Of a DNA stretch of 64,000 nt, positions 6,401 through 63,838 are shown piece after piece (within the stretch, counting starts at the first letter, position 1; each line of letters starts with the position of its first letter). Made by a program: the position numbers and the translations under genes. The DNA lies in contig CAJINV010000004.1 of assembly GCA_905178155.1 (NCBI GenBank), forward strand, positions 4,272,518-4,336,517, given 5' to 3'. The stretch comes from Amoebophrya sp. A120. Taxonomy: Eukaryota; Protista; Dinoflagellata. Under the pieces are notes generated by a model, which did not search any database, was not told where the DNA came from, and saw only the letters and a list, made by a program, of their open reading frames with translations.

Positions 6401-9400
6401 CTCCACAGCGAAGAACTCGATGACCCCGACCGGGTTGACACGCCGTACAGCACGGGCACTCCGGCGTTTGAGGCGGAGCACCATATCGTATTTAAAAACG
6501 TCCCCACCCCAGAGTTGTCATGCGAATCTGCATGCTGAAAATGTTTATCATGCGGAGCCCCATGAGAAGCATTTTTCAGTCGTGTATTGGAGTTTGTCAT
6601 GCTGGAATCAGCATGATATACTAGATCTGTCATGCTGCTGAACTACCTCGCACAGCACTACACTACGGGGCCAAACTTGTCATGCGAAACAACTAAAGGT
6701 GGTTGATTTGTCTAGCAGATTTCCCATTTTGACTCTGGTGTGGGGACGTTTTTGCTCAGGATACACCAGATGGAGGGGTTATCCTCCGAACAGGAGGAAA
6801 ACCGGACCAGCAGCCGAATTGAGGTTAGCCAAGGGACCTCCGCTATCAAATGCAAAAATGTCTGGGTCTGGAAGAATCCAACTTGTTATGCTGATTTTGG
6901 ATTCTAAGAAAATCTGTATTGCATGAGCAGCAAAGAGACTCCAAGTTTTGCTACACGGAAAGAGCATTTGTCATGCGGTATAGGCATCAGGAAGCCCTCA
7001 CAAAATGTGTGATGCTAGGGCATGCATCACAGGCATCAGGAGTCATGCAAAATGTGCATGACAAACCTGGCAATCTTCCAGACCCAGACACTTTTACATT
7101 TGATAGGGACCGCCCCACAAGAACTCGAGCCGCAGTCGCAGGGTACTACCGCGAGTTCTGTCGTCGACCCAAACACGCCGGTGGTTTCGTTTCTGGGGGA
7201 GCAGCAGCAGTATCTGATGTCTTCGCGACAGAATTCCCCGCGAAACAGCGCGGCGACCGCCGTGGCTGGAGAAGGAGATGCTGGAAGTGAATCCGTTAGG
7301 GGACTACAGAAGAGCGGTGCGACTGAAATAAAATCCTCCGTCGCCACTGTTTTACCGGCAGGAAGAACGAACACGACTATTGCAAGAACCAAGGTAATTC
7401 CTGATACTGTCATCCTCCAAGAACAAGATGACTACACTAACGGTCGCGTTTCAGCAGCAGCAGCAGGAACTTCAAATGACCTCCGCCGTTTGACGCTGAT
7501 CAGCATGGAAACACCCTTCCAGAGCAAAGCGGACGAAACCGCGGCAGCACAGGCGTCGGCTAACACTGTTGCGTTGGTGCAGGACATCTGGACGCCGGCC
7601 GATGCAGTCATCAACGGAAACCTAGAAGAGCAGAAGCTGGAATTGACGAGAAGCGCTGTTTTCAAGCAGTTGCGGGAACTGCAACAGAAGAAAATCGTGA
7701 ACGACGAAAAAGTAATTTCCGACGTGAAAGCGCGCATCACGATCCCATCCGAAGCTGTCGAGCCGCACATGATTTTTCAGGACGGCATGCGGTTGACCTA
7801 CATTCACCCGGAAACCGGGGAGAAGTTGAAGAGGCCGGCGAGTCCCGAACGGAAAATCCGGGACAGGGATGGGGAGCGGAAATGGATCAAATTCGAAGAA
7901 GATTACAGTATCCAAATCACCGCAAACTACAACAATTGCAACGAGGAGTTGTTTGTTGACGGGAAAAAACGGACGGTTTCCATCCCGGGCGCCTGCTTCT
8001 TACCGAAGAAGGCACCAAGGATCAATTCCCGGCTGTTCACGTTCCGCAGGGATATGCTGTTGCCAACCTGGGTGAACCAATTCTCCGTGTTGTGGGAAAA
8101 GCGGCGAAAGTCTTTGGCGCACTTGGAGGAGATGCTGGACGCGTTGGAACTAGCCCCGGAGGTGCTGCAAAGGGCGTCGAACTTCCACGCGAACACCAGC
8201 AAAGTCAACTACACGGACCTAGATTTCGCAAAATTACCGCTGCAGCACAGCAACCACAGAGATGAAAAGGAGGGACGGCCAACGTGGAACAGCAACTTCC
8301 ACCAGCTTCCGAGCGGACACGTGTTCTCCGGGATCAAGCCCGACAGCCCGCGCCGGAAGTGGGTGCCGTTTGAGCGGAAGGTGCCGAAGAGTCTCATGCA
8401 GTGGTACGCCCTGAAACACCGGAATTCCGTCGAGGGGAAAGCGTGGTCGGAAAAGGTTGCGAATTTGAAACAGGCGGAACTCGATGAGCTACACGGCGGG
8501 AATAATGCTTTTACAAATGGCTATCCTTTGAACTACAAATCTTGCGCCGACGAGCATGCTCCCTGGTCGAAAGATACTAAAGTCGAAGGCCTCTTCTCCG
8601 ATCGGGACAAGAACCTGTGGAAAAAGCGCATGAAAACCATGCAGCAGGGGCAGCAGGCGCTGCGGTGTTTCCGGAACGCGCTGGACGCGAAATACCATTT
8701 TTCAGACATTTCTTCCCCTTTGACGCTAGACGCGTTTCGCTTGCAGCAACAGAAGTTCGAAATCCACGACGGTAATATGGACGACGATTACGGCATGATG
8801 GCAGGAGTTCCACTGTCGGCGGCCAACCCCTTTCCATCCTCCGCCTTCGATGGCCCCGGTAGTTCGGAGATGATGGGTAATATGAGCATGAAGCAGCCGA
8901 TAGCTATGATGACCGCTCTGGCGGAGGAAGATGAGGAGGAAGTAGCGGACGGTGGTGGTGCGGAGAAAGCAGAAAGACCACCTGAGGAGCAAGCTACTGG
9001 CCAGCTGCCCGCTGCCGCCATTGCTCCCGGTAGTTCCACGCTTTCCAAAACCTCCATCGCCTCTGACAAGGGCCTCCGAGCCAGCGCCGCTAACCAGGCC
9101 GCACCGGGAGATGTTCTTGAGCGAGGGTCCGATGAACAGCATTTGGACCAAGTGGTCGATTCCTTGAATGAGATCCACGCCGGTGTGGTCTCTTTCGCGA
9201 AAGGACAGAAAAACCCCTGGGCGGTAGCTCCTGCGGGAACTGCAGGAACAGACGGGCGGTCAAGCGTTAGCAGCACAAATTCGGCCGGGCAACAAGGGCA
9301 AACACTATCTCAGCTCGACCAGGAGCTTCTTCGGGACAGGCGGCAAACGATCTCGGAAATTCTCCGCCTTCTCCGGGACCGCAACACGGCGCTCGCCGTT

Positions 9401-12400
9401 GCCGCGGCGGAGGCGGCGGAACACGATCGCCAGTACGAGGAGGAGTACTTTCGCCATTTGCAGCATAATCAAGACCCGGAGGAAATAACGAATTACCCAC
9501 CCCACCAATACCTCCACTTGGCGGAAGAGTTGGGGGAAACCGCGTTGTACGAATGCGTCACCTTCTTGAAATCGAGCGACGATGTGGAACGGGAGATCGC
9601 TTTGTTGGAAAAGTACCTCTACGACACGGCCTTGGTCGGCGAATCTGCGGTTGGGAGGCTCGTCTCGGATTTGCACGCCTGGCGGACCGATCCGAGTAGA
9701 GATTTGCACAGGGATTCGAAAGTGTTGAAGAAGATGCAGAACAGTCACTGGGGAAACACGAAAAAAATCCCCGGGTTTGCGATCAAACACTTACTACCCG
9801 ACGTGAACTTGTCTTTGGTAGAACGGTTGAAAGCGCGTTCCAAACCGAGGCACGTGGTTCACAACAGGACACAGAGCTTAGACGAGAAAGCGAAAAAGAA
9901 CCGCGAGGCTGCGAAGAAACAGGCGGCGGATAATGCGCGGAAAAAGTTCGGCACGAGGTCCGGGAACGTTGCGAGCAGTGGGAATTTGGGAGGTGTTGAC
10001 AAGGCTACAACCCGAAAAAGCAGTACTTTTTCGCCGCGTCAGAGTTCCGTCAGACGATCCACACAGCAGCAGAATACGCAGGCAAGTCGAGCAGGACAAG
10101 AAGGTGCGATTGCCTCGATTCTGAAATCTACTTCCGAGCGGAGATCTTCGTCGAAAGGGAACAAAGGCACTTCATCTTCGCAGCAAATGTCAGTTCTGTT
10201 TCCGGCGCAGGTCGTGTCAATTCGAGAGTCCTCTGCGGACAAGGAGGGTGACAAGCTTCTCTCCGGCCATATCACAGGAAAAAGTGTTAACGTTAACGGA
10301 ATTTGTGATGCAGAAATGCATCACAAAACGTGCCAAAATTTGTCATGCATAGCATGCATGCTAGGCAAAATTTGTCATCCATTTTTGCAATCTATGAAAG
10401 CCGTTAACGTTAACACTTTTTCCTGTGATAGGCCAGGGGGAGTTGATCAGCACAAACGAATTCCGCGCTACTGGGACGGTTAGAGATGCTGGTAGTTCAA
10501 CAAAACAGTCGGCGAATAAGATAAACTTGGATTTGAATTCCGCGATCACAAGCGATGAGGCCCGCGAACTGAAAAAGATCGGCGCCGAGACGATGACAGG
10601 CGCCTTTATGGCCAAGCAGGGGATGTTTGAATCTTTTGTCGGTGGGCCGGTAGAACAAGAACCGGAAATGATGCTAGAAAGGAGCAGCAGCCGACTGGTG
10701 TCCGGCGACGGCGGTGTGGCGGATTCCGATAGGGGGCGCTCCGAACGTGCTCAGGCGGAACAAATGCTGGACCAGCAGCGAAAAAACACGACCCAGCAGT
10801 CATCTTCTTCTGTCCGGAGCTCCAGAACTTCTTCCGTTTTCAATAAAGGCTCGGCAATTCTAAGCAAGCAAAATTATGGATCAGAACATATAGAGCCAGC
10901 AGAATCCACCAACCCCAGCAAGCTTTCCCGTCCCTCCTTCAATCGGCCACAAACGACGGCACGATCGTCCAAGTCGTCGGTAGTATCAAAGTCGTCAGCG
11001 AAAAGTGATACTCAAGAAGGAGACAACATGGAGCAGGCTGCGTTGCGGCTTTCGACGGGGGCTTCGAGGAAGTCTAGCCGCCAGTCGAACCAGGAAGTAG
11101 AACAAAGCCAAGATATGGTAAAGCAATCCACAGCTTCCAGCGTGCGGAATAAAAGCTCAAAGATCAGTGAGGGCAAGAAGTCTTCCACTATGTCTGCTAG
11201 AACCTCAGGATCCAAAGTGAGTTTGAGCAGCGATAAGAAAGCCAGCAGCCGAATCGATGCTCCCGAAGACGATTCCGAAGCGAAGCAGAAGCTCTTAGAG
11301 CATTTGAACTCGCTCGGGGAGGTAAACAGTGACGGGAATGTTGTGCTGCCAATCGACGCGGTAAATCAGTTGCGGAGTTACTTGAAAAAGAGCACGGCGA
11401 GTCAGGAGCAGGAAGAGGAAACCTCCCAGAGACAGTCCTCCACCAGGAAAGTATCTTCTGAGATGTTGAACAAGGGCCCTTCAGAGAGAAGTGCCGCTTC
11501 TGACACCAAGGGCGCAGCTCCTTCTAGACGCGATTCCTCATCCAAGCGTAGCGGTTCGGAATCGTCTGACTCAAAGCAGATGAAAACACGTCGAGAACAA
11601 ACAGCCGCAAGTCGAGCTTGCACTGTCAGGCGAGAAGAGGAAGATGAGCAGACAGATGACAGGAAGCAAAAGTCGGAAAATTTCTCTCCGCGACAAAGTT
11701 CTTCTACGTCGCAAAGAATCAGCTTGAAGCGTGAAAGCAGCACCAAAAGAAGCGTTGGCTCTTCTCCAACATCTCGCGCGGAAAGCAAGACAGGGAGCGT
11801 CAAGCGGGAGAGTTCAGTTCTTCGCAACGCAATGGAGAAAACAAGCGCTGTCGAGCAGCGCGATAGCACCGTAGTTCGTCGCGACGAGGAGGCTGCGACG
11901 AGTGTCAAGCGCGATATCAGAAGTAGTACAACTTCCGGCGGCGCAGCTTCCGTTGTGAATACGAAACAAGACCAGGAAGAAGTTGTCGAGCGGGCTGTTT
12001 CATCTAGCAAAAAATCCACCAGCTCACTGAAAGACACGGACCGGGACGGGAGCAAGAAATCGACCAGTCGCCAGTCCGACCTGTTTGTGAGCTTCGAATC
12101 GAAGAACATCAAGGCTTCCACCGCCTCTGGTGTGAACGTGAACAACGGAGACGAGGTTGACAAAGACACCAGAAGGAGCACGGCAAAGCGGAGCATTTCG
12201 AAAAGAGGATCTTCTTCTAAAAGAGAGGCCGATGTCGGTCGTGGTGGTGAAGATGATGTTCCGGATCTACTTCGAGAGGAGCAGAAATCTTCCAAAAGAT
12301 CTGAGATGTCTGATGGAAAGAAGTCCTCTCGGCGTCGTGACAGCAGCGAAATGTTGAATCAAAACCCGAATAATTACAACACCGACATGGCGGACCGGAG

Positions 12401-15400
12401 TTCCGCGGACAGTCTGACTGCCGCGATCGTCGAGGGCCCGCGGGGCCCGAGTCAGCGCAGTCTAGGGAGCGAGGCCGCGCGCGCCGCAATGGAAATTTTA
12501 GATGGCGTGAACCTCGGGGCGTATGCGGGGGTGGCGAGGGCAAGCAGCACTGCTGAAAATATCAATAGCGGCGCACCAAAAGGAATAGGTGCTGAAGAGC
12601 AACAGCAGGAGGACAATGCTCTTGCGGGACGGACATCTACTACTTCTCGACCCTCCAGCAAGCGCAGTAAAAATTCCGGCTTCACTACGCAAGATATGCC
12701 CGAAGATCTTGACTACACCACCAGGAAGAGCAAGACTTCCTCGAGAGGCACCAGGGGCGCTGGCTCTGAAGTGAAGTACAATGACGTAGTGACCAGCCCG
12801 GAGGAGGCACCAGAGCAGTCTTCGGACGAGCAGCAAGTAAAAACGCGAGAAATAAAATCGTCGAGGGTGAAATCTGGGGAGCCGGGGGAAGAAGAGAAAG
12901 AGAGTTTTTACAACCCATATCGCAAGAAAAAAGTAGTACAGTCACACATTGTGTTGCAGGAACCGCAAGACAGACAACCTTTGTCATGCAGGAAATGCTT
13001 GCGAGCCTCGTTTCCTACATATTCCCCCTTATGATCTTTGCATTACTATACAAGTTTTCTCTTCCACACAGAGAGAATTTGTGATGCAGAAACTTCAACG
13101 AATGTGTAACTGTAACACTTTTTTCTTGTGATAACCCACTAAAGAAGAAGAGTAAAACTTCCTCCCGAGGAACGTATGCATTGCAAAAGTGTCTGGGTCT
13201 GGAAGAATGCAACTTGTGATGCTGCATTTGGATGTTTACAAAATTTGTGTTGCATGAGCAGCAAAAGGAATCTATTTTTTGCTACGCGGAGAGGGCATTT
13301 GTAATGCGGAATAGGCTTCAAGAACCCCACAGGAGTCCTGTGATGCTAGGGCATGCATCACAGACGTCATGGCTCATGCACGCCGTGCATGACAAGTCTC
13401 AGAATCTTCCAGACCCAGACACTTTTACATTTGATAGAACGCGAGGAGGTTCGAAAGTCCCCTTCGCCGACGTGGCAAGTAGTTCAGACGAACCCAGTAA
13501 GCGACAGACGAGGCAATCCGACACTGCTGTTCCTCGTCGTCGTGCTGGGAGTAGTTCAACAGCTTCGGAGAAAAAACAAGACTCTGAAGACTTTGTCCCA
13601 GCAGCGGATAAGAAGAGCAAGACTTCTTCCAGGGGGACCCGCGGTGGTTCTGACGTGCGGTACGGGGACGTCGATAGTGTCGCTTTGGACGTGGACCACG
13701 ACAAGAACTCGGGAGTAGAGCAGGAGTACGCTCCTGGCACAACGCCGCTGCAAAGTGACGACCCGCGGTCTTCGTCAGACAAGTTTTTCACGGGTCTGAG
13801 CAATCCGATGCTGTCAACATCCGTTGAGCAGCAAGAGGACGGGGGGAAGTCTTCACAGAAAAAATCCTCGAAAATCTCATCTTCTTCGAGGATCGAAAAA
13901 TCCTCTAGATCCGGCAGTTCCAGTTCCAAAAAGGCTGAAAATCAAAATTCAGCAAATGCTGCAGCTACTTCATCGTCAAGGATCTCCCATCACGACGTGT
14001 CTGATTCGGAGGCGCAGCAGCATCTCATGGATGAAATCAGGAGCACCGGCGTTATCGGCTTCGACGGCACCACGCTCGATAACAAGAAGAGCGAAACCAA
14101 CCGAGATAAATATGGACAACTACTTCCTGACAGTTCTTCTCCGCAAAGTGGGCAGACGGAGTTTCTCACAGCCTTGAGCCACGACGACGAAGCTGCCGCT
14201 GTTGATCAAGGCGAAGAGAGTCAAAGACCTGGGAGTGCCAACAGCAACATAAGGATGCCATCGAGTTCTTTCTCCAAGAAAAGTTCCAAAATTTCCACGC
14301 AACAAGACCAATACCAAAACCTCGCTGAAGACGCCAATTTACACGAGTCGACGGATATCCTGCACCATGATGTTTCGGAGGACGAAGCCAAGTCGCATTT
14401 GATGAAAACCATCATGAGCATGAACACAATCAACCTCGACGGCACGACGCAGGACAAGGATACGACGGTAAGAATTTCCCAGAAAAATTCGTTGATCCAA
14501 GAGGTGGATGAAGTAGAGAAGAAATCCAGCCGAGAACAAGAGTCGACCGCTTCACGGGGTAGTGGTACGTCGAAGGAGAACGAGAGTAGTACCAAGGACG
14601 CCGAAGAACTGCACAAATCGACGAAAATTTTGCACCCGGACGACGTGTCGGAAGAGGAAGCGAAGGATCACTTGATGAAGACCATTATGTCCATGGGGAC
14701 AGTGACCTTCGATGGTGGAATCTCGCAACCGAAAGAAGAACCAGAAGAACCAGCGCATGACATGGTGAATCTGACGCCGTTGGAGAAGGACGCGAGCCGA
14801 GGGAGCCTGCTGAACGACGACAGATCTTCTGGGAAGAGGTCGTCTGGATCCGGACCTTCGCAGGCGAGCAATGCCACAAATGCCGTATCGCAGCAAAGAG
14901 GAATGGACACGAGAGGCATGCTGTTGACGTCGTCCCAGAAAGGCACAAGTGGCACACAAGATCTGGACAACATCACTGCGGGCATCATGGAAGACGAAGC
15001 GAATAAAAGTTCCTCTGCCCCCGATCTGCACCTCCACGCCGATCAGCTTATGAAGCAGAGTGTGATTGCGGAGAACATGAAAAGCAGGATTTCCAAACAC
15101 AATGTAACGGAGGAAGAGGCGAAAGATCATTTGATGGATGAGATTCTCTCAATAGGCGTCGTCAACCACGACGGAACCAGCGGTTTTCGGGAAGACCATA
15201 TTGTACTGGAAAAACAACCGACGCAGGGACTGGTGGAGGCTACAGTTGAAAGCGGGGGCGGCTCCTCGAACTTGGCGGAGGAGTCCCTCTCTGTCTCTGT
15301 CGCTTCTCCGTCTGCTCGTGGTGCAGGAGGTCCCTCGGGATTAGAAGAAAGTGCCTTTTCTCAAGTAGAGAGCGCCGCAAACAACACGGTGAAGATCCAC

Positions 15401-16354
15401 GCACCTGTCATCCCACCGACTAGCGGCCTGAAGAGCAGCAGTCAAGAAAGACTACTGCCTTCCTCCGGCGAAATCATTCAGCAGTCGTCAAGTGAGTTGA
15501 AGACAAAAGATCTTTCCTACAATGTCCCGTCAGGCTCGGACGATTTGACGCAAGTGAAGCTGCGTAGCGACAAAGCGGAACCAACGGCGGTGCCAATGCA
15601 CTACAGCTCGCAGTTTGAGACCTTAAGTAAAAATGATCCACCCTCAGGAGAACCCCAACAAACACCAGAACAGAGAATATCCAGCGAAGATAAGAAGAGC
15701 GTGAAGAAATCGCGCCGTTCCTCCGGCGTTGACGGTTCCGTGAGTGAGAAGGCGGGGATGTTCGCAGCAAAGGCGCTGGACATTGACGAGCACGAACAGC
15801 CCGGCGCACCGGGGGAGAACGTTGATAACACGAGGTCGTCCGCTGCCGAACTGACTAGAGAAGGAGAACATCAGTCTTCACAGAACACTAACGAGGATGG
15901 TTCATCACCTGATCAATACCCCGGGCCGTCAGATCCGAGGATTCCCAATCGGTACTCGCACGTGCGCGGCGCCGGGGGTCAACAAGCACAAAGTGAAATG
16001 TCGAATGTTTCTCTCCGGGCCAATAATACCGTCAACGTTTTCAAATCGGAGGACATGGCCGCACCAAACGAAAGGACGACCGGGTTTCGCTCGGTAGGGG
16101 CGTCATTAAAGTCCGAGAGGTCAGATAGCGAGAGCCCATCGAATGATCCCGAAAAAAGAGGTCCTCGAGACACCGACGCTACGGCGGCCTGGGGCCAGGG
16201 CAGTCGCGCCACCATGCGCGACGGGCCAAGTGAGATCGTTCGGCCGAGCCAGGCGTTGCCCGGAGCTGCAGGGAAGAAAAAGAGAAAACCAGACAGACAC
16301 GCGACCATGGCCGGTGGACAGACGGAAAGTAGCAGCAACGAGCAGGAGTTGTAG
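3401..16354 (+). CDS. Giant (~3,915 aa) S/T/E/K-rich low-complexity protein of unknown function, split by five TIR inserts
   Basis: ORFs 3401-6538, 7022-10483, 10425-13034 and 13232-16354 join in one frame when inserts 6484-6763, 6844-7105, 10270-10430, 12918-13133 and 13175-13436 plus one 5-nt duplication each are removed (11,748 nt). The junction exon regenerates the protein's own KSKTSSRGTRG repeat. Confidence 0.8.
6484..6763. mobile_element. Introner, family D
   Basis: TATCGTATTTAAAAACGTCCCCAC..GTGGGGACGTTTTTGCTCAGGATA; TSD cacca. Confidence 0.9.
6844..7105. mobile_element. Introner, family A
   Basis: TATCAAATGCAAAAATGTCTGGGTCTGGAAG..CTTCCAGACCCAGACACTTTTACATTTGATA. Flanks gggacctccgc/gggaccgcccc, no clean 5-bp TSD. 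Confidence 0.9.
10270..10430. mobile_element. Introner, family E
   Basis: Perfect 30-bp TIR TATCACAGGAAAAAGTGTTAACGTTAACGG; TSD ggcca. Confidence 0.95.
12918..13133. mobile_element. Introner, family F
   Basis: TATCGCAAGAAAAAAGT..ACTTTTTTCTTGTGATA; TSD accca. Confidence 0.92.
13175..13436. mobile_element. Introner, family A
   Basis: Family-A TIRs; TSD gaacg. Confidence 0.95.
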
Positions 16355-34300: not shown

Positions 34301-34562
34301 AATGCGCGAAAAGACGCGAGTTTTGCTGAGCGGGAGTTCCACGCCAGCGCCGAGTCCGACGGGTACGGTGGAGATGAACTTGCTTTTCGAGGGAGAAACG
34401 ACAGCGACACCGAATTCCGGTAGTACGCAACACAGTAGTGCTGGGGTTGCTGCGAACAAGGCTGAGCAGGGAGCACCACAAGCGGCAGTGGCAGATCAGG
34501 AAACCACAGTCGCTCGAAGTTCGCTGATGTCGTTTTTCTACCGCCCTACTTCTCAGCTGTAA
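28380..34562 (+). CDS. Protein with two N-terminal PDZ-like domains and a long disordered tail
   Basis: KSLGMAVRQDGQITAVGPNSWAEQMGIKIHDELL and RKLGFRYY|HGVVVEVKPDSWAGAVAGIL|PGDKLLEIQD match the PDZ pattern (LG-phi..V.P.S.A...G...GD.LL). TIR insert 28690-28951; GT-AG introns ~29016-29232 and 33700-33857. Confidence 0.72.
28690..28951. mobile_element. Introner, family A
   Basis: Family-A TIRs; TSD ctacc. Confidence 0.93.
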
Positions 34563-38300: not shown

Positions 38301-39373
38301 AGATACTCGAGGACCGGTGGCGGCAAGTAAAAGAATTTTCGCTCTACAACCTGCTGGTCAACGGTACGGAGGGAAAAGCGATATTGGCGTACTGATAATT
38401 TTTCTGGAATTTTCGTTCTGATGTTGCCTTGCGTGTGCTGTTTGATCGTCGAATGATCTACATTTTTCACGACCTGTTGTAGTTCATCATCATGATCCGT
38501 GGTCACGGTGCATGTGCTTCTGTTTGTGTTGAACAAGAACCGATTTATCAAAATCATGCGCCGTATGTAAAACATAAACAAAATCTCACGACGTGCTTCA
38601 ACAGAAACCGCAAATGGTCTCCGGAACAGAGTTTCCAGAAGCTTCTTGCTTTAGCCGATACGTCGCTCGACAAGATCACCGACAGTCTGGACCGAGACAG
38701 TGTGGTGAGCCGCGACCTGTTGATTCCCTACTTCTGCTACGAACTCTTACTAGACAACGTAAAGCTGCGGAATATGAACTGCAGCAAAAGTATCGTACTC
38801 GTAGAAATGCATGACAAATCTTTTCAGCATGAGAAACAGAATTTGTAATGCGGATTTACCTTAAGAAAAAGATTTGTAATGCATGATCGCAATTACGAGT
38901 GCGATACTTTTGCACAGGATACGGAAAATTGCGAACCAATACCAGCTGCGGGTCCTGTTGATTCACCGCGGAAAGTATGCATTGCAAATATCCCTGGATG
39001 TCTGGTGGAAGAATGCAACTTGTGATGCTGCATTTGGACTCCAAAAAAATCTGCATTGCATGAGCGGCAAAGGGAGTGTAATTGTTGCTACGGGAAAAGG
39101 GCACTTGTCATGCGGAATAGGCATCAAGAAGCCCTCAAAAAATCTCTGATGCTAGGGCATGCATCACAGACATCATGGCTCATGCAAAACTTGCATGACA
39201 AGTCTCGGAATCTTCTTCCAGACCCAGACATTTTTGCATTTGATAGAAAGAACCTGCTGACCGACCCGGAAGCCGAGCTTCCGGCGGGCGAGGGTCTCTT
39301 CACCGGTGCCGGGGCGCCGTTAGGTGAGGGGGCGCAGAAGAAAAGTGGAATCTTCGGGTCCCTGTTTTCCTGA
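35355..39373 (+). CDS. RCC1-repeat (beta-propeller) protein with a helical/coiled-coil C-terminal half
   Basis: Repeats GDGFMLALTESGQVMAWGASKSGCLGLG, GEKHILARTDKGELFAWGQNSMGQLGIG and GSSSFALSTAGEVYAWGSNAEFALGL. The frame is restored across seven TIR inserts and two GT-AG introns. Confidence 0.85.
35728..35877. mobile_element. Introner, family B
   Basis: Family-B TIRs; TSD gaagg. Confidence 0.93.
36427..36693. mobile_element. Introner, family A
   Basis: Family-A TIRs; TSD gtacg. Confidence 0.93.
36876..37097. mobile_element. Introner, family C
   Basis: Family-C TIRs; degenerate TSD ggtaa/ggcga. Confidence 0.9.
37215..37487. mobile_element. Introner, family A
   Basis: Family-A TIRs (left one degenerate); TSD ggagc/gaagc. 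Confidence 0.9.
38061..38210. mobile_element. Introner, family B
   Basis: TACGCATTGCAAAACTATCGTAC..GCAATGCATA; TSD tggcg. Confidence 0.92.
38773..38921. mobile_element. Introner, family B
   Basis: Family-B TIRs; TSD cggaa. Confidence 0.92.
38976..39245. mobile_element. Introner, family A
   Basis: Family-A TIRs; TSD gaaag. Confidence 0.92.
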
Positions 39374-52400: not shown

Positions 52401-55008
52401 GCTGCTGTTCCCCTCTGGCAGCTCTGCGTCGGCGTCAGCAGCAGCAGGAGCAACAGCGGCTGGCTCAGCTGAACAACCCGACGTCGGCACTACAGCACGG
52501 CCCCCTCCTGTCCGCACCCCGGAGCGGCTTCGGAAGATTGAGCAGCAATACTCCGAGCTGTACTCCCCCATTCGAAAGCGGGTTTTGAGCCCCAAACACC
52601 CTATGGCGGTGGCGTCCACGGGTTACGTGGGCTCCCGGCTGCAGAGTATCCCGCCGCTGCAGCAGGCTCACATCGCCAACGACATACACGTGGCTTCCAC
52701 GCTGATCCAACAGCCCAGCCCAAACAAACTGTATCTGCATTCGGAGTCTCTGACTGCGGGTAGCGAGTATTTGGGTTTCGGGCTGGCATCAACAGGATCT
52801 AGTAGTACTCGTCTGGGCAGGGGCGGAGGTGGTGATCTCTTCGCGAAGTCCGCGTTCGCATCGCCGCGTAAACGGGACTGGAACCACGATCGGGTTGTCC
52901 CCGGCGGCGCGTCGACGAGAGCCATGAGCAGCGGCAAGGGAGATAGGGTGCTTTCTCCTTCATCTCTGACCAAGATTGATGATGAGATGAGAGGACACCA
53001 AAGCAGCAGCCTCTCTATGCCACGCCACAGCAAAATAAACTTGTTCACCGCCTCTCTGAAAGACGAGGAGCGGAGAAGGATGAAACCCAACTACGCACAC
53101 CTTACCGACGACCTTCTGAAAGAGGAGCTTACCGGATTGAGGAACTACTACCGGAAAGTAAATCGGATGACAACTACATCCTCGCGCGCAGCCTCGTCGC
53201 CGGGAGGGATCAGGAGAATGAGCGGAGGTGGTGGACAGATTTCTGTCTACTCGTCCCCGAGAATTAATACTCCGGGCGCAACTGCTGCGAGTACTGCAAC
53301 TACTACCCTTCGCATTCCACAGCCCCGGACGAGCTTCTATGCGGGTTCTAGTTCCTCACAACTGGGGCTGATGTCAGATCATGCCGCAGATTTTACGCCG
53401 TCACACCACCACGACATCAAAGTCAACTACTTCACGAATCGTGCTTCCCTGTCCTCAGCCAGAAGCCGACGGGATTATAGCCAAAACTATACCCAGTCAA
53501 TCCACAGTGAAACTCTCTACCCGCTAATTGGCACCGCGTACAACACTTTACACAACAGCGCGACCACCTTTGCAGCCTCCGCCCGGGCGGCGAAGATGAA
53601 AATTCGCGTTGGCAACCGCACGTCCAGTCCCTCCCTCTACAAAACCGAAACAGCCCGCACGACCCCCATATGAATGTGTCAGGTTTGAAATGGACAAAGT
53701 TGAAATAATTTGCCATGCATAAAATGGATGCCAGTTAGACCTGCAGTTTGTAGTCGGTGCATGACAAATTTTCCCGGTCCTGGAAGCGAGTCTGTCATGC
53801 GGTTTAGGGCAAAAGAGCTGCCTTCTGTCATGCTCGTCAGCAGTCCAACTTTTGACCCTTACCAGGACTATGATCTGCCTCCCTTGCGTCCTCTGCAATA
53901 GAGTCAGTTTTTGTATCGCATTTTATGCATTACAAGTTATTTCAACTTTGTCGATTTCAACTCTGACACATCCATACCCCACCGCCGACAAGTACATGCA
54001 GCGCCACGCGGGGACGTATGCAGGAAAAAACACCCATCCCCATCCAATTTGTCATGCAAAACATGCATAAAATCCACTATTTGTCATGCAAAATATGGAT
54101 GGGGATGGGTGTTTTTTCCTGGATAGGACGCCCTTCAGCCGGTTCCTGCACAGCCGTAGCCGGATATGGAATGCGAATTTATTTTTATTCCTGTACAGAT
54201 ACAAGATTGATACATCACAAATTATTTCGCGAACTTACTTTACTGATAGAAGAAGCGTACCCCTACATGTCATGCTCTGAATAGGATTTTTCTTGTATGT
54301 GCACCGGATGAAATTTCCTGTGGATACCGGAGCAGAACGCCACTAAACGGAAGTAACTTGTCCGGGGCTTTTGGCGGGGAGAAAATCACGCTGGAGTCGC
54401 CTACTTGTCGTTCGGACCGAAGAGTGCTCCAGGGGAACTACGACTCTGCGTCAGCTCTGATTGTGCGGGATTTTGTGGACAAAACGAACACCAGTTTTGA
54501 TGCGGTGTTTGGCGCCGGCGATGATATTACGGGAAGAAGTGGGCCGACGTCGAGGACAACTGGGGAGCGGGTGCAAGAGGTGCCGTCGGTGTTGAACAAT
54601 ACGTCGAACTTCGGTCTTGATCGGGCGGATGATCGATACAACTCCGGTACTACAACTAGCAGAACATCATTTCTTTCTCCATCGCCATCCTCACGAAGAA
54701 TAGGAAAAAATAGCGACGCGCACTGTTTTGCTCCGCAGAATCGTGGTGGTCGTGGAGGAGCAGGACAACTGTCCTCCTCTTTCATCACCTCTTCAATGAA
54801 CCAGCACGAGGACCAAATCGTGGATCACGTGCGGCAAAACCTGACGAAAATCCGGCAAAATCACTTCCGGGATTTGGAGCAGATTTTGAGTCCGCCGGGG
54901 AAGCGGATTCTCTCTGCTTTTGATGACCATAATCGGGACCACCTGCGAGGTCCTCTTGCCAGGGGAATGCGGGGTAGTGGACGGAGCGACTTTTTCTATC
55001 GGGCGTAG
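49499..55008 (+). CDS. Large S/G/T-rich low-complexity protein of unknown function
   Basis: ORFs 49463-49828, 49897-53673 and 54358-55008 join in frame after removing inserts 49800-49952, 53669-53976, 54017-54125 and 54165-54326 with one TSD each. Confidence 0.75.
49800..49952. mobile_element. Introner, family B
   Basis: Family-B TIRs; TSD tgcga. Confidence 0.93.
53669..53976. mobile_element. Introner, family H
   Basis: TATGAATGTGTCAGGTTTGAAATGGACAAAGTTGAAATAA..TTATTTCAACTTTGTCGATTTCAACTCTGACACATCCATA; TSD cccca. Confidence 0.93.
54017..54125. mobile_element. Introner, family J (109 bp)
   Basis: TATGCAGGAAAAAACACCCATCCCCATCCA..TGGATGGGGATGGGTGTTTTTTCCTGGATA; TSD ggacg. Confidence 0.95.
54165..54326. 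mobile_element. Introner, family K (reverse of 62477-62630)
   Basis: TATGGAATGCGAATTT..GAAATTTCCTGTGGATA; TSD ccgga. Confidence 0.85.
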
Positions 55009-55990: not shown

Positions 55991-58050
55991 ATGGGGAGCG
56001 ACGACGGAGGCAGAAAAGTTGCGGTCATGTGCGCCGCTGCGGGTGCCTATCCTGAGTAAAAACATACCCACACCAGAGTCAGGATGGGGATTGTGCAACA
56101 CAAACCTAGGAGTTTTGTGAGTCACGCATGACAAGTTGCACTCTGCAGTGTAGTGCAGGTTAGCAAGTGCAGCCGCGTCACAGATTCATCTGCTCATCCT
56201 GTTCACAGCATCACAAATTCCAAAACACGACTGGAAATGGCTCTCATGGGGATGCGCATTACAAGTCTTCCTGTCTTTGCAAATCTGCATTACAACTCTG
56301 GTGTGGGTATGTTTTTACTCAGGATAGTGCCCTGGCGCTAGGCAGTCTTGCTGCGTACTACGCAGTCAGCAGCATGTCGAGCTCATCATCGAAAAACGAG
56401 TTTGACGGAAATGTATAATTAAAAGACTAGCTTGATTCCATGGGAGTTGCATATCCATACTAGCAGCGTCATCTCGCATTGCTTGGCAGATGCGAATGAT
56501 TGAGGATCGCCCTTGCTACTGCATGTACACGCATGCGCCAGTTTTCCTTACCATTTTACTTCTACCGGTCGTGGTTTTGTGAGCAAGACAGGTTTCTCGA
56601 TGAATTCAAATGCAACTACGAAACAGGTGACTGCCGCCCAGATGGTGCAGCTTTTGGAGGAAATCGTGGAGAGTCAGCAGGATATGAAGCTATGAACTGC
56701 AAAACAAGTATTGTACTCGTATGAATGCATTACAAATTTCCGCAGCATGAGAAATAAAATCTGTAATGCGGATATGCCTCTAAGAAAAATATTTGTCATG
56801 CATCATTGCAGTACAAGTGCGATACTTTTGCACAGGATAGAAGCGAATGATGGACGATTTGATGCAGGAAATTACCGCAAAGGACCTCAGCTTCGCCGAA
56901 ATATGCGCCTTGGTGCAGCAGAGAAAACCAAGGGATCTGCTGGAAGAGAAAAACATTTCGATCAAAAGATTCTCAAGTATTTATGCTGCCGCGACCAAGA
57001 TTTTGCTTCTCTTGCCAATAGCAATGTCCTAATCACGACAAACAGACCTTGAACGGATTTTCCATTTTGATGTTTTCTGTGCTTCCTGTTCCTCTTCCTG
57101 CCGTCAGCTTGCAATGCAAGAAAACAAAACTGCTTCATCAGGTCTCCTCGAAGAATTTAGTCACAATCCAACGATTCGAGCAAAGGTGGTGCAGCTCACG
57201 CAATCACAGGCGGAACCCAGCAGCTCAAAAAGCGTATTGATTTCTCATGGTTTTTGTGAATAGCATATGGCAGCAACACTGCAAGATGACGTGGTGTGAT
57301 GTATATTATTGTTGATGATCTTCGAAGGGCGTCGTGTGGTTCCCAGTCTTATTTCTCAACCAGACAAAATCCTGTATCACAGACCATATCACCGGAGCAC
57401 GTAGCGAAGCTTGCGGAGAAGCACAGTGTCACGGAAGTGATCGCCATTCACGAGTACATGCTTATGCACTGCAAAAGTTGTATCGTACTAGTACAAATTG
57501 CATTACAAATTGACTTAGCATAACAAATTGAATTTGTAATGCGGATTTGCCTTTTTAGCAAAAAGATTTGTACTATATGCATAAACGCAGTTAGTACGAG
57601 TACGATAGTACTTTTGCACAGGATAATGCTCGAGCAGCTGCAATCCATCCTGCGAGAAACCACGAGCACGGAATTTAGCTCCAGGGTTGCAACCATTAGT
57701 AGCCAAGCCTTCGTCGCCAAACTTGTGAAGAGAAAGTAAGATACTCTTTTTCATTTGCATTCTTCCTTTTTCAAGGATGTTTTTCTCTTTTGTGGTTCCG
57801 CCCCGTTGCGAAAGATAAAGTTTTTTGCTTTTGGTACTTGTTGAACCTGAACGTGAGGAGGCGGTATCCTCGTTACATAACCTCTATCAGGTATGGCCTT
57901 TCCAGCGAGGAGCTTGAAGCCGTAGTAGCGAACTATCAGCAACAGTTGGGCACGAACGACCGGTTTTTTGAGCTCGGAATCGAGATGCGGGAAGCCGTCC
58001 AGAGCTTGGTGAAGAAAGCGACCGCAAGCGGAGGACCGGCGGTGGCGTAG
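55991..58050 (+). CDS. Small helical protein with an N-terminal hydrophobic anchor, function unknown
   Basis: MGSDDGGRKVAVMCAAAGA|LALGSLAAYYAV..VTAAQMVQLLEEIVESQQDMK|RMMDDLM..EVIAIHEYML|EQLQSIL..YGLSSEELEAVV. Three TIR inserts and several GT-AG introns; middle exon boundaries uncertain. Confidence 0.7.
56048..56326. mobile_element. Introner, family D (near-identical reverse complement of 43348-43626)
   Basis: TATCCTGAGTAAAAACATACCCACACCAGAG TIR; TSD gtgcc. Confidence 0.95.
56691..56839. mobile_element. Introner, family B
   Basis: Family-B TIRs; TSD gaagc. Confidence 0.92.
57463..57625. mobile_element. Introner, family B
   Basis: Family-B TIRs; TSD atgct. Confidence 0.92.
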
Positions 58051-60030: not shown

Positions 60031-60402
60031 TCTTCACGGCAACAAAATTACCGATCGCGACTGCCGTGGCCTTCGCTATATGTTGTTTGGTTCTGGTTGG
60101 AGATCCTGGCGCGTTGACTCTTTTTCCACATTTTCTTTAATGTCCGCTCTCGTGTTCTTTCCGGATCTTCGCTCCCCATGCAAGCAAGGAGGTGAAGGAT
60201 CGGCTTGGGTTTAGATCTGCAGTGCCCGTTGATCTTGGGCTGATGTCTTCTCGTCAATCAATGAATATGAAGATGGCGATGCATTGCCATTGCCGCGTCT
60301 TCGGGCCTCATCAATCTGTTACTATCGATCGCGTTCATTGAGTTCCTTCGTCCGTTGTACTTGTATCCGACATGAAGCACTAGAGCCGCAGCAAATGCGC
60401 AC

Positions 60403-63400
60403 ATGAATAAGGGCCAGCGCGTGTTTCTCGAAGCGTGCAAGATGCGGTCGCTCGCTTGGTGCCGGCGACGTAGACGGCGACGAAGGAAAGGCAGTGTCGC
60501 CCGCCGAAATAGAATCAAGACCGATTCTGAATCAGAAACGACCGCCCGGGCCAAAGCAGCGCTCTTGCGCAAGGGGGGACGGCTGGTTTCTGAGTGCAAC
60601 TGTTTTTCCGAGCTTCAACAGCGGGAGGCCTTCTCAGTCGTCGCTGCCCTCTTTGCTTTTCTGCTAACCGTGCGACACAAGCTCTTTTCGTTCTATTCCA
60701 CTGACGCTGACGAGGTTATAATTTCATCTGCGGATCATGGGCATTTCCCCCTGCATCGACGACCTACTTCACCCTACTTTTTCGCCCGGGCCGCTGAAGA
60801 TGTTCACACCACGACAAGAAGAACGACAACATCTTCAGCACCGACGACGCACCTGCAGCTGACTCTCGACGAAACCCTGCAGTGCCAGGGCAGCGAGTTT
60901 ATCCGGAGCCACGTCTGGGGGCATTTGAAGCAGTACACGGAGAACTGGATGGACATCCCGATCCGGGACAGTACCATGTTTGAAAAACTGGTCTTGGCGA
61001 TCGACCACAACAGCCTCCTGGAGCAGCACGCGGCGGACTGCGGGTTCGGGCTCCTGGTCCTCCTCCTCGGCTCCCTCCGCTCGATGGACTACAACCACGG
61101 CTCGGCAATCGCGCTCTACTTTTACAGGTTTGTGATCGACCGGCTGCTGCCGGATTTGCGGGAGCTCTTCGCGTTGGACCCGGACCGGGTGAACGCGGCG
61201 GGCTGGGAAAAGCTGCTCGAGAACGAAGACGCGTTGATTGAGGACGAACTGGTGCCCTACGGTCCGATGCTAGGCTACGACCCCGCGATCGATGAGTCGC
61301 CTCACCCCGGGGTGCCGCCGCCCGGGGCGTATCCGTGCAAACATGGGTACGGGCTGTAGTGGGGGTTGTGTTTTCTACTTTTTCATCTTCCATACCGCTA
61401 GAAGTACGAGGACCCACTAGCGTGTATACGCTTTGATTTTGGTTGTAAGTGAAATTGTTTCTGTTCAGGCATAACTACGACGACGGACGTTGTACGTAGA
61501 GGTACCAAGAACAAACTAAAACAAGGTTGAAGATTTTTATCTACGACTTCCCGGACCTGACTACCGGCCCGCTCCATTGCCACCATGGGCTTATCAAGTG
61601 CAAAAATGTCTGGGTCTGGAAGAGTGCGTGTTTGTCATGCTTGTGTGGCATGACTCTTGAATCTGTCATGCACGTTACCCAAGCGCTCCAGTCCATTTTT
61701 CCGTCATGCAGGAACGCAGTTTGTCATGCAGAATAAGTAGGCAACACCTAGAAGCTCAGAAACTTGTCATGCTGGGCCAGCACTTGTGGCCTCATCATGA
61801 TTCGCCACCCAGCATCACAAGTTTCCAGACCCAGACATTTTTGCATTTGATATCCGAGTGGGGCGTCGAAACGCTCATCCCCGAGTGGATTCGGCGCAGC
61901 GAGTGCCACACGACCGACGTATCAACTACAATCATGTTTCAGTCTGGGAGATCATTGCGAGATTTGTCATGCTAGTTTGGCATGACTCTGAACTCTGTAT
62001 TGCGTGGCAACGAAGAACTCCTCTTGTCTGTCATGCAAAGTCGCAGTGTCTCATGCGGAGTACGCAACTCAGAACCGCGGAAAGACTTGTCATACTGGGC
62101 AGCGCATTACAGTGCGCTCACTATTCCTTTTCTTGCATCACAGGTTTCCAGACCCAGACGTATTTGCACTGCATACGATGGCGCGAACGCGGATTTCTAT
62201 CTCGTCCCCTGGTACACGTGGTGCCAGCGCATGGTGATCCCCTTGAACCGCTCCGACGGGGAGATTGACGCCGTGTACGTGTCCATGATGAAGAACGAAC
62301 GACTCACCTATTTCCGCAAGAACGAGGGCGCGGACCACATTTTCCTCATGTCCGACCAGGGACTGATTTTCTGGACCAGCTGGCGCGACTACGTCCCGCA
62401 CAGCATCTTCTTGACGACCGAGGCGTTTACCCCGAACTGCGGCAGGCCCTGCCACCAACCCTGGAAGGACATCGTCTATCCACAGTAAATTTCCCGTACA
62501 CATACAAATGCAGTCTCCGCATGACAAAACTTGCCTTCAATCCTACCCCAGCATGACAAGTTGGGCTCTGCAAGGTAGCGAAATTTGTCATGCATTTTGT
62601 ACATGATGTACAGGAAATTTTCATTTCATATCGTCATCCCCGGACACACCGACTACTTCCGGAGCCGGCGCATGCGGAAGTTTGACTTGCCGACCAACCA
62701 GCGCCCTCTCCTTTTCAACTTCCACGGGAGGCACGCCTACATCCTGAAACAGCTGGGGAGGCAGAATTACGCGGCCAACACGCTAAGGAGGCATTTGGTG
62801 GATCTGTTCGGCGACTTCGAGGAGTTCGGGGAGGACGAGGAGTATTTGGAGAGTATCAAGGCGAAAATGATCGACAAAACGGTGCCAAAACCCTACCACG
62901 GTCGCATCTCCGTCGGCGGCTTCACGGATGACTTCTTCGAGCGGATGGGCGCGAGCCACTTCTGTCTCGTGCCGCACGGGAACACCAGCTGGACGAACCA
63001 TCTGTACAATGCATTTTTCGCCGGCTGTATCCCGGTGATTTTGTCCGACAACATGGAGGTGCCGTTCGAGGATCTGCTCGACTGGAAAATATGCAGTGCA
63101 AAAATGTCTGGGTCTGGAAGCTTTCCAGGTTTGTCATGCATATTTTGCATGACCCAGAATTGTTTGTGATGTATGCCCTACCATCACAGATTTTCAGAAC
63201 CCTTCCTGATGCCTATCCCGCACGACAAATGCCCTCCCCGCGTAGCACAAACTGGGCTCCTCTTGCTGGTCATGCAATACAGATTTTTTTAGCATGCAGA
63301 GTTAGCATGACAAGTTGCAACCTTCCAGACCCAGACATTTTTGCAATCCATAGAAAACGTTCTCGGTGAAGTGGAACCAGGAAAATATCAGCGAGAGCTT

Positions 63401-63838
63401 ATTCTTATCCTGTGCAAAAGTATCGTACTCGTAGTAATCGCAATCATGCATTACAAATCTCCATCCCAAGGTAAATCAGCATGACAAATTGCATTTCTCA
63501 TGCTGAGCTAATTTGTCATGCGATTCATACTAGTACGATACTTTTGCAATGCATAACTCTACGATTTGCAGAAGTTCTCCTACCAGCAGATTTTCCAGAT
63601 GAAACAGGAAGTCGCGAAGCACCAGTGCTGGTTCGACTACAATCTGCGCAACGCCTCGGAGTGCAGCCCCTACCAAGCGGTGATGGCGGTGTTGGCAAAG
63701 AAGGCGAAAATACTGCCGACCAAGTACAACTTCGGCAGCGAAGAAAAATGGTGGGGAGCGGTCGGGGGACCAAACATTTGGGACTACATGCCGGTGGGGA
63801 CAAAGGACAAATTGTTGGCGGCCCAGTGGGAACATTGA
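60403..63838 (+). CDS. Exostosin-family (GT47) glycosyltransferase; start codon uncertain
   Basis: LKIFIYDFP, ADFYLVP, GADHIFLMSDQG, KDIV|IPG, LLFNFHGR and MGASHFCLVPHGNTSWTNHLYNAFFAGCIPVILSDNMEVPFEDLLDW are typical exostosin motifs. Five TIR inserts and one GT-AG intron. Confidence 0.9.
61592..61852. mobile_element. Introner, family A
   Basis: Family-A TIRs. Flanks gggct/tccga do not match, but removing element plus 5 nt restores CHHG.WGVE. Confidence 0.88.
61920..62175. mobile_element. Introner, family A (second subfamily)
   Basis: Degenerate family-A TIRs; TSD cgacg/cgatg. Confidence 0.88.
62477..62630. mobile_element. Introner, family K
   Basis: TATCCACAGTAAATTTCCCGTAC..GTACAGGAAATTTTCATTTCATA; TSD tcgtc. 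Splits KDIV|IPG. Confidence 0.92.
63090..63352. mobile_element. Introner, family A (reverse orientation)
   Basis: Family-A TIRs; TSD gaaaa. Confidence 0.93.
63406..63555. mobile_element. Introner, family B
   Basis: Family-B TIRs; TSD attct/actct. Confidence 0.92.

What the first reader, a model, noticed from the sequence alone, without database searches (positions are those of the whole stretch)
6484..63555. 42 MITE-like TIR inserts act as precisely removed non-GT-AG introns in nine genes
Seen: 42 inserts from ~10 unrelated TIR families sit inside coding exons. Each has TA(T)...(A)TA ends and 30 have a perfect 5-bp flanking duplication. In every case, removing the insert plus 5 nt restores the frame, including conserved motifs (EF-hand loop [12 protein letters not shown], exostosin KDIV|IPG, RCC1 VY|AWG). 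Sliding the boundaries through the duplication gives exact GT-AG ends in only about two cases (35728, 36876). The same genes also carry normal GT-AG introns. Established: introner elements with inverted and short direct repeats forming non-canonical introns have been reported in Amoebophrya, and as far as I know their splicing mechanism is unresolved. Inference: a second, TIR- or hairpin-guided excision pathway runs alongside the spliceosome.
Basis: partly seen in the sequence, partly recalled or inferred. Interest (0 to 1): 0.9.

Follow-up and report, generated by a model that had tools for sequence, protein, structure and literature searches.

The report
Hairpin introns cut at fixed register
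Forty-two small transposon copies interrupt nine genes of the parasitic dinoflagellate Amoebophrya A120, an intron class already described there; RNA data show most of them removed exactly, and the cuts fall one base before and four bases after the element wherever this can be told, which likely points to a modified spliceosome that measures from a hairpin.

Summary
In detail: 42 TA…TA inverted-repeat inserts in nine genes, 30 with a perfect 5-bp duplication. Three spliced models equal public Amoebophrya A120 proteins, so these are the introner elements of Farhat et al. 2021: a known class. RNA contigs (one sample) show loss of element + 5 nt at 11 junctions directly and at 19 more by exact contig length; 3 are seen on one side, 9 were not shown. 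The new detail is the register. All 8 informative junctions fit intron = 1 nt + element + 4 nt (chance of any common register 0.04); one with no duplication pins it exactly. This puts the elements' TA at intron +2/+3, as in 13 of 13 ordinary GTA introns here, while +1 and the 3' end are free. Against: a public model removes +8 at 6844, 4 of 41 elements do not fold in register, no branch motif. The scan noted similar introns in two other dinoflagellate genomes.

The parts
3401..16354 (+). Gene 1, 3,915-codon low-complexity frame, 5 inserts, no ordinary intron
   Evidence: residues 1053-3915 identical to public P0034
6484..6763 (+). Insert, 280 nt, 5/5 duplication
   Evidence: frame only, no RNA test
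6844..7105 (+). Insert, 262 nt, 1/5 duplication; a 4/5 copy lies 3 nt further on; public model removes + 8
   Evidence: no RNA test
10270..10430 (+). Insert, 161 nt, 5/5; a GC-AG slide exists
   Evidence: junction residues equal P0034; no RNA test
12918..13133 (+). Insert, 216 nt, 5/5
   Evidence: no RNA test
13175..13436 (+). Insert, 262 nt, 5/5
   Evidence: no RNA test
17433..19807 (+). Gene 2, 176 aa EF-hand protein (calcineurin B-like is a recalled label); predicted GT-AG introns 17558-17752, 18313-18564, 18676-19705
   Evidence: weak EF-hand hits on single exons, below the Pfam cut-off
17839..18200 (+). Insert, 362 nt, 5/5, inside an EF-hand loop
   Evidence: no RNA test
23258..27293 (+). 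Gene 3, 3' part only, open across 3 inserts
25521..25674 (+). Insert, 154 nt, 5/5
   Evidence: frame only
25721..25939 (+). Insert, 219 nt, 5/5
   Evidence: RNA piece begins at 25940, one side only
26853..27004 (+). Insert, 152 nt, 5/5
   Evidence: adjacent RNA pieces 26847/27005 in X1 and X4
28380..34562 (+). Gene 4, 1,846 aa; predicted GT-AG introns 29016-29232, 33700-33857
28690..28951 (+). Insert, 262 nt, 5/5
   Evidence: frame only, RNA cover too thin
35355..39373 (+). Gene 5, RCC1-repeat protein, 655 aa; GT-AG introns 36005-36323, 38389-38604
   Evidence: model equals P0001; contig 2,176 nt equals model; Pfam
35728..35877 (+). Insert, 150 nt, 5/5; GT-AG in the fixed register
   Evidence: contig length
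36427..36693 (+). Insert, 267 nt, 5/5, inside an RCC1 repeat
   Evidence: contig length
36876..37097 (+). Insert, 222 nt, 3/5; a GT-AG slide exists but the public protein does not use it
   Evidence: contig length; register from P0001 only
37215..37487 (+). Insert, 273 nt, 4/5; informative (k 2-5)
   Evidence: RNA piece begins at 37490
38061..38210 (+). Insert, 150 nt, 5/5
   Evidence: contig length
38773..38921 (+). Insert, 149 nt, 5/5; no in-register hairpin predicted
   Evidence: contig length
38976..39245 (+). Insert, 270 nt, 5/5
   Evidence: contig length
40357..48167 (+). Gene 6, Na+/H+ exchanger, 836 aa, 13 inserts; GT-AG intron 42472-42709
   Evidence: model equals P0002; contig 3,388 nt equals model; Pfam
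40565..40728 (+). Insert, 164 nt, 4/5; informative (k at least 4)
   Evidence: RNA piece ends at 40563
40876..41080 (+). Insert, 205 nt, 5/5; the one insert whose retention leaves the frame open
   Evidence: contig length
41157..41413 (+). Insert, 257 nt, 3/5
   Evidence: contig length
41590..41900 (+). Insert, 311 nt, 5/5
   Evidence: contig length
41964..42273 (+). Insert, 310 nt, 5/5
   Evidence: contig length
43081..43301 (+). Insert, 221 nt, 5/5
   Evidence: contig length
43348..43626 (+). Insert, 279 nt, 5/5
   Evidence: contig length
43863..44082 (+). Insert, 220 nt, 4/5; informative (k 2-5)
   Evidence: RNA piece ends at 43859
44159..44418 (+). Insert, 260 nt, 5/5
   Evidence: contig length
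44625..44853 (+). Insert, 229 nt, 3/5; informative (k 1-4)
   Evidence: joint 44620/44855 in X1-X3
44914..46927 (+). Insert, 2,014 nt including a nested element, 4/5; informative (k 1-5)
   Evidence: joint 44909/46929, skip 2,019
45045..46901 (.). Nested 1,857-nt element, TTA...TAA ends, 643-nt inverted arms, own 5-bp duplication
   Evidence: no Pfam hit in 8 of the 13 frames listed
46995..47247 (+). Insert, 253 nt, 5/5
   Evidence: joint 46989/47248
47710..47983 (+). Insert, 274 nt, 4/5; informative (k at most 4)
   Evidence: joint 47703/47983
49499..55008 (+). Gene 7, 1,585 aa, 4 inserts, no ordinary intron
   Evidence: contig 3,806 nt equals model from 50999
49800..49952 (+). Insert, 153 nt, 5/5
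   Evidence: RNA piece begins at 49952, one side only
53669..53976 (+). Insert, 308 nt, 5/5
   Evidence: contig length
54017..54125 (+). Insert, 109 nt, 5/5
   Evidence: contig length
54165..54326 (+). Insert, 162 nt, 5/5; no in-register hairpin predicted
   Evidence: contig length
55991..58050 (+). Gene 8, 256 aa; GT-AG introns 56413-56626, 56977-57141, 57234-57382, 57736-57890
   Evidence: all seven joints
56048..56326 (+). Insert, 279 nt, 5/5
   Evidence: joint 56042/56327
56691..56839 (+). Insert, 149 nt, 5/5
   Evidence: joint 56685/56840
57463..57625 (+). Insert, 163 nt, 5/5
   Evidence: joint 57457/57626
60403..63838 (+). Gene 9, exostosin GT47 protein, 715 aa; GT-AG intron 61347-61525
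   Evidence: model equals P0003; orthologues collinear; Pfam
61592..61852 (+). Insert, 261 nt, 0/5 duplication; intron 61591-61856, ends TT..CG, not slidable
   Evidence: joint 61590/61857 with 0 ambiguous bases in X1-X3; falls in the HHGQWG motif shared by 7 of 7 aligned proteins
61920..62175 (+). Insert, 256 nt, 4/5; informative (k 4-5)
   Evidence: joint 61918/62180
62477..62630 (+). Insert, 154 nt, 5/5
   Evidence: joint 62470/62630
63090..63352 (+). Insert, 263 nt, 5/5
   Evidence: RNA piece ends at 63084, one side only
63406..63555 (+). Insert, 150 nt, 4/5

Best explanation
The inserts are Amoebophrya A120 introner elements, non-coding inverted-repeat transposon copies that are removed from the RNA with cuts 1 nt before and 4 nt after the element at every junction where RNA can tell, likely by the organism's own modified U2-type spliceosome. 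Shown: element + 5 nt is missing from RNA contigs; copies of one family are removed in both orientations; the duplication is not needed (61592); the register gives an intron N-T-A-T...A-T-A-N4. Inferred: the 5-bp duplication is a transposase target-site duplication; the spliceosome, reported to lack U1, reads U+2/A+3 as in its ordinary GTA introns and no longer demands G+1; pairing of the inverted repeats brings the ends together and stands in for AG recognition, placing the 3' cut 4 nt past the stem. Because both ends of an element look alike, any insertion in any orientation becomes a clean intron that leaves one copy of the target site.
For: Removal: 11 of 42 joints seen directly and 19 more inside contigs whose length equals the model to the base (2,176; 3,388; 3,806 nt). 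Register: 8 of 8 informative junctions allow k = 4 and no other common value; two exclude k = 5, two exclude k up to 3, one pins k = 4; chance of any common register 0.039, of one that includes 4 0.004. 5' end: T+2 A+3 in 42 of 42 inserts and in 13 of 13 ordinary introns; +4 is T in 39 of 42 and a pyrimidine in 10 of 13. In Table S4 of PMC7789003, 18 of 18 listed predominant non-canonical motifs have T at +2, in both strains, though the A25 repeats begin TTA and the A120 repeats TAT. U2, U4, U5, U6 and 83 of 89 spliceosomal proteins are reported, U1 is not; the Karlodinium-infecting strain has GT-AG introns and U1 (PMC12005148). The Fritillaria U2 spliceosome removes transposon-derived non-GT-AG introns. 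Hairpin: on average 19.5 of 25 end positions pair, against 4-10 in ordinary introns; 37 of 41 fold with z below -2.
Against: No lariat, snRNP or genetic data. G+1 in only 12 of 42 and AG ends in 3 of 42, though these bases are nearly invariant for known spliceosomes (own knowledge). No branch-point motif was seen. The stem would bury +2 onward (mean pair probability about 0.65 at element positions 1-3, 0.4 at 4-7). TA at +2/+3 could be a one-in-six coincidence with transposase-required ends, and I selected elements on TA ends. At 36876 the public protein does not use an available GT-AG of equal length (annotation, not RNA). At 6844 the public model removes + 8, against a strict ruler, though that model is out of frame at the neighbouring insert and a 97% similar model exists. 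Four of 41 elements show no in-register stem, three of them inside length-matched contigs. G-U and A-C mismatches are about equal (39 and 46), so no sign of selection on the RNA strand. All RNA comes from one sample of one study; exact pinning rests on one junction.
Confidence: 0.55

Rival explanations
1. A separate hairpin-guided endonuclease and ligase cut across the base of the stem with a 3-nt stagger and join the exons, beside an ordinary spliceosome.
For: Same RNA facts. No G+1, AG or branch motif; orientation does not matter. The stagger (+4 opposite -7) lies within the Euglena rule N3-CDG...CH'G-N5-6, where +4 lies opposite -6 or -7, the donor spacer is strict, and the authors favour non-spliceosomal factors (PMC12501133). 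Euglenid introns are reported to leave as circles, not lariats (review PMC11282704). The public model at 36876 ignores a GT-AG alternative.
Against: It does not explain why T+2/A+3 match the ordinary donor in both strains, nor why U1 is missing in the two strains with such introns. No candidate enzyme was looked for (no genome held). Four of 41 elements lack a predicted in-register stem.
Confidence: 0.35
2. The elements are self-splicing RNAs, or are cut out of the DNA in the expressing stage.
For: Strong folding; TA ends recall ciliate eliminated sequences (recalled).
Against: Thirteen unlike internal sequences, in both orientations, one with a 1.9-kb nested insertion, leave no common catalytic core. 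In DNA run X5 unique pieces run into the elements at both ends (for example 28925-35773), and no exon-to-exon joint is among the 15 shown of 1,813 (table cut).
Confidence: 0.06
3. The joins are reverse-transcriptase skips across hairpins with direct repeats, or the genes are dead.
For: Hairpin plus direct repeat is the known setting for template switching (own knowledge); the contigs presumably derive from cDNA.
Against: Retention breaks 41 of 42 frames; 61592 has no repeat yet joins exactly in a motif shared by 7 of 7 homologues; the same contigs lose GT-AG introns too.
Confidence: 0.04

Closest known systems
Introner elements (IEs) among the non-canonical introns of Amoebophrya sp. A120 (Farhat et al. 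2021, PMC7789003)
   Same: Same organism (three spliced models equal public A120 proteins); inverted repeats starting TAT, seven looser bases, then at least three A; 3-5 nt direct repeats; repeated families; mixed with GT-AG introns; RNA-supported.
   Different: Nothing in kind. The paper's Fig. 3 legend calls the splice sites variable relative to the hairpin and the border unknown; here one register fits all 8 informative junctions. Its figures were not visible to me, and its remark on four-nucleotide repeats upstream of the 5' end may partly anticipate this.
Nonconventional introns of Euglena (Nomura et al. 2025, PMC12501133)
   Same: MITE-like origin proposed, paired ends, direct repeats that blur the border, fixed spacers between cut and paired motif, 3' side 2-3 nt longer than the 5' side.
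   Different: Motif CDG/CH'G at +4 with spacers 3 and 5-6; here TAT/ATA at +2 with spacers 1 and 4. Unrelated lineage. The Euglena 5' end does not resemble a spliceosomal donor; this one does at +2/+3.
Non-GT-AG introns of Fritillaria borealis (bioRxiv 10.1101/2025.08.15.670264; Henriet 2019, seen only as cited)
   Same: Transposon-derived introns removed without GT-AG; attributed to a modified U2 spliceosome.
   Different: Fritillaria has preferred end dinucleotides (AG-AC, AG-AT) and keeps U1; here +1, -2 and -1 are free and U1 is reported missing.
Introner-like elements of Symbiodinium and Polarella (bioRxiv 10.1101/2020.10.14.339549)
   Same: Dinoflagellate inverted-repeat transposons with target-site duplications that create introns, some in both orientations.
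   Different: They carry or recruit GT/GC/GA and AG sites, so only some target sites work; these need no particular target sequence.

Membership tests
Amoebophrya A120 introner elements | Occur in the A120 genome | tested here: met
   Models equal P0001, P0002, P0003, labelled A120 by their sources
Amoebophrya A120 introner elements | Terminal inverted repeat TAT + 7 nt + at least 3 A | tested here: met
   TAT 39 of 42; A at element positions 11-14 in 35, 39, 36, 35 of 42
Amoebophrya A120 introner elements | 3-5 nt direct repeat at the borders | tested here: met
   30 of 42 perfect 5 bp, 40 of 42 at least 3/5, two without
Amoebophrya A120 introner elements | Repeated in families | tested here: met
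   36 of 42 in 7 multi-copy clusters within the window, 6 singletons
Amoebophrya A120 introner elements | Removed from RNA with non-GT-AG ends | tested here: met
   30 of 42 by joint or exact contig length; GT-AG in the fixed register 1 of 42
MITE (non-autonomous TIR transposon) | Short, inverted ends, constant-length duplication | tested here: met
   109-362 nt apart from one nested case; 5-bp duplication only
MITE (non-autonomous TIR transposon) | Cognate transposase in the genome | not testable with these tools
   No genome held; no Pfam hit in 22 frames taken from three long GC-rich stretches of the window
U2-type spliceosomal intron | GT at +1/+2 | tested here: not met
   T+2 42 of 42 but G+1 12 of 42
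U2-type spliceosomal intron | AG at -2/-1 | tested here: not met
   3 of 42
U2-type spliceosomal intron | Branch-point adenosine motif | tested here: inconclusive
   A is fixed at -5 (42 of 42) and -7 (41 of 42) as part of the repeat; no U2-pairing motif seen by eye in the last 24 nt
U2-type spliceosomal intron | Lariat product and snRNP dependence | not testable with these tools
   Needs lariat sequencing or inhibition
Euglena nonconventional intron | N3-CDG...CH'G-N5-6 motif | tested here: not met
   +4 is T in 39 of 42
Euglena nonconventional intron | Paired ends, 3' spacer 2-3 nt longer than 5' spacer | tested here: met
   Spacers 1 and 4 against 3 and 5-6
Euglena nonconventional intron | Purine as first base of the downstream exon | tested here: inconclusive
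   27 of 42, not tested against background
Euglena nonconventional intron | Full-length circular excision product | not testable with these tools
   No RNase R or circle data

The most novel reading that the evidence does not exclude
A120 has a nuclear mRNA splicing machine that is not the spliceosome: it measures from a terminal hairpin, cuts 1 nt before and 4 nt after it whatever the bases, and has converged on the same 2-3 nt stagger as the unexplained Euglena pathway, making tens of thousands of transposon insertions harmless in any site and orientation.
Probability: 0.35. Interest if true: 0.85.

Novelty: already known. Interest (0 to 1): 0.5.

Why it matters
The class is published, but how these introns are removed is open, and the paper left the borders unplaced. 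A fixed register turns tens of thousands of ambiguous junctions into exact ones (rule N|N-TA...TA-NNNN|), names the expected ends of the excised RNA and the candidate branch adenosines, and so makes lariat against circle a direct experiment. Either answer is notable: a spliceosome that needs neither G+1 nor AG, or a second splicing machine convergent with Euglena.

Tried and rejected
No whole genome is held, so no genome-wide register count, no snRNA, Prp8 or transposase search. The run search listed no holder on record as RNA; X1-X4 proved spliced when laid. The first lay included DNA run X5, whose repeat-to-repeat joints filled the joint table (15 of 1,813 shown), so 25400-45000 rests on contig pieces and lengths; the second showed 15 of 22 joints. 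My first guesses for three ordinary introns were wrong and were corrected from RNA (38389-38604, 56977-57141, 57234-57382). G-U against A-C mismatch test for RNA-strand selection: no excess (39 and 46). Pairing of the flanks beyond the stem: 13 of 42 Watson-Crick at the first outside pair, not tested further. The 2-kb insert was left out of the folding (41 of 42 folded; 20 shuffles each). Transposase search: no Pfam hit in 8 of 14 frames at 19900-21600, 8 of 13 at 45045-46901 and 6 of 8 at 58600-60150. Cryptic GT-AG use: seen at none of the 11 direct insert joints. 'Unrelated families': rejected. Exons of genes 5 and 6 found only the A120 protein itself, so orthologue support exists for gene 9 alone.
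Full report
What is there. A scan for TA...TA inverted ends, reading of the whole window and refinement gave 41 inserts; a frame break in gene 7 led to the 42nd. Thirty have a perfect 5-bp flanking duplication and none a perfect one of 3, 4, 6 or 7 bp. With every insert + 5 nt removed, nine frames are open, and retention of a single insert breaks the frame in 41 of 42 cases. BLAST gives 13 clusters (12, 9, 4, 4, 3, 2, 2 and six singletons), most multi-copy clusters in both orientations. All share TAT-N7-AAAA ends, and 41 of 42 carry an internal TGTVATGC motif, so they are probably moved by one kind of transposase (inference).

Which organism. Exon searches returned proteins labelled Amoebophrya sp. 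A120, and my spliced models of genes 5, 6 and 9 equal them residue for residue. Pfam: RCC1 repeats, Na+/H+ exchanger, exostosin GT47. Six exostosin homologues, of 29 hits, align without a gap across all five junctions, one of the six ending just before the last. The end motif matches the A120 introner elements of Farhat et al. 2021 (PMC7789003; I read the abstract, sections 10, 11, 12, 16 and 25, passages, and supplement passages including Table S4; figures were not visible). The phenomenon is therefore published.

RNA test. Runs X1-X4 (one sample, one study, assembled contigs) lack the ordinary introns and so are RNA; X5 is unspliced. Eleven insert joints are seen directly, each a loss of element + 5 nt, including the 2,014-nt nested one. 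Three contigs equal the model to the base, 2,176, 3,388 and 3,806 nt, which covers 19 more inserts unless errors cancel. Three are seen on one side only. Nine were not shown: five in gene 1, 17839, 25521, 28690 and 63406. Both orientations of two families are among the direct joints.

Where the cuts lie. Let k be the number of bases kept from the left copy of the duplication. Eight junctions with imperfect copies are informative: 37215 (2-5), 40565 (4 or more), 43863 (2-5), 44625 (1-4), 44914 (1-5), 47710 (up to 4), 61920 (4-5) and 61592 (4 only). The only common value is 4; with random k, a common value arises in 3.9% of trials and one including 4 in 0.4%. Three of the eight rest on one end of a contig piece, five on full joints in three runs. 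Junction 61592 has no duplication, cannot slide, ends TT..CG and falls in a motif shared by all seven aligned proteins; its RNA folds into a long terminal stem, z -7.5. Public proteins agree with k = 4 at all 11 imperfect junctions of genes 5, 6 and 9, though three of these allow any k, and exclude the GT-AG slide at 36876; these are transcript-guided annotations, not independent RNA. One datum disagrees: at 6844, where a 4/5 copy of the duplication lies 3 nt further on, the public model removes + 8. That model is out of frame at the neighbouring insert and a 97% similar model exists, so it is doubtful, but I could not test it.

How it most likely works. The intron is N-TA(T)...(A)TA-NNNN. Position +1 and the last four bases are free (27 end-dinucleotide classes in 42, GT-AG once), while +2/+3 are TA, as in all 13 ordinary introns modelled here, 8 of them RNA-backed. 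Table S4 of the paper lists 18 predominant non-canonical motifs and all have T at +2, TT-NN in A25 and NT-NN in A120; how the authors placed slidable borders is not stated in what I read. The paper finds U2, U4, U5, U6 and 83 of 89 proteins but no U1, whereas a strain with ordinary introns has U1 (PMC12005148, passages). I infer a spliceosome that reads U+2/A+3, has dropped G+1 and AG, and takes the 3' site from the hairpin (0.55). The rival is a hairpin-guided nuclease and ligase (0.35): Euglena nonconventional introns have fixed spacers with a 2-3 nt longer 3' side, matching the 3 nt here, and their authors favour non-spliceosomal factors (PMC12501133, abstract, passages, sections 8 and 12). 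Results against my reading: no branch motif seen, a stem that would cover the donor, four of 41 elements without a predicted in-register stem, no G-U excess, and the 36876 and 6844 models. Artefact and DNA-level removal are unlikely (rivals 3 and 4).

Literature. Searches found no paper that fixes the register or the mechanism for Amoebophrya; search 54 served for Euglena. The library lacks most subscription papers, Figs 3 and S19-S23 of the 2021 paper were not visible, and supplements of the other papers were not opened, so prior notice of the register cannot be excluded. Also seen: PMC12130899 (passages), PMC11282704 (passages and section 6), PMC11453091 (passages), PMC12621601 (passages), PMC9860276 (passages), bioRxiv 2025.08.15.670264 (abstract and passages), bioRxiv 2020.10.14.339549 (passages). 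Henriet 2019, Roy 2023 and Guminska 2021 were seen only as cited. Two earlier notes of this scan describe hairpin-bounded non-canonical introns in other dinoflagellate genomes; I did not test them. None exists for this genome.

Verdict. Real, and already known as a class. The fixed register and its match to the ordinary donor are a useful, testable addition resting on eight junctions from one sample. Interest 0.5.

Noticed in passing
window 19946-21537: Intergenic 1,592-nt GC-rich element with TAT...ATA ends, a long perfect inverted repeat and a perfect 5-bp duplication; a possible longer relative of the inserts. No Pfam hit in 8 of 14 frames.
   Followed up: partly
window 45045-46901: Nested 1,857-nt element with 643-nt inverted arms, a 5-bp duplication and TTA...TAA ends, the triplet reported for A25 repeats. 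The host insert is still removed exactly.
   Followed up: partly
window 58700-60050: GC-rich stretch between genes 8 and 9 with next to no RNA cover, perhaps another mobile element; no Pfam hit in 6 of 8 frames.
   Followed up: partly
window 18676-19705: Unusually long predicted GT-AG intron (1,030 nt) with GC-rich internal repeats, probably holding a decayed insertion.
   Followed up: no
window 1-2500: Truncated insert copies (12-112, 607-819, 1869-1969), an intact-looking one at 1596-1820 with a 4/5 duplication, duplicated gene fragments and short telomere-like repeats; looks like a rearranged region.
   Followed up: no
window 6069-7160: The public model P0034 starts in another frame and is off by one base at insert 6484, truncating a 3,915-codon frame to 3,025; a 97% similar model P0032 starts inside the insert. 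Probably annotation errors caused by these introns.
   Followed up: partly
flanks of the 42 inserts: The duplicated target has T at its middle position in only 1-2 of 42 and is C-rich at positions 3-4, a hint of target preference.
   Followed up: no
13 ordinary introns: All start GTA, 12 end CAG and one AAG; A stands at -5 in 8 of 13, the position of the invariant A of the inserts. Small sample, untested.
   Followed up: no
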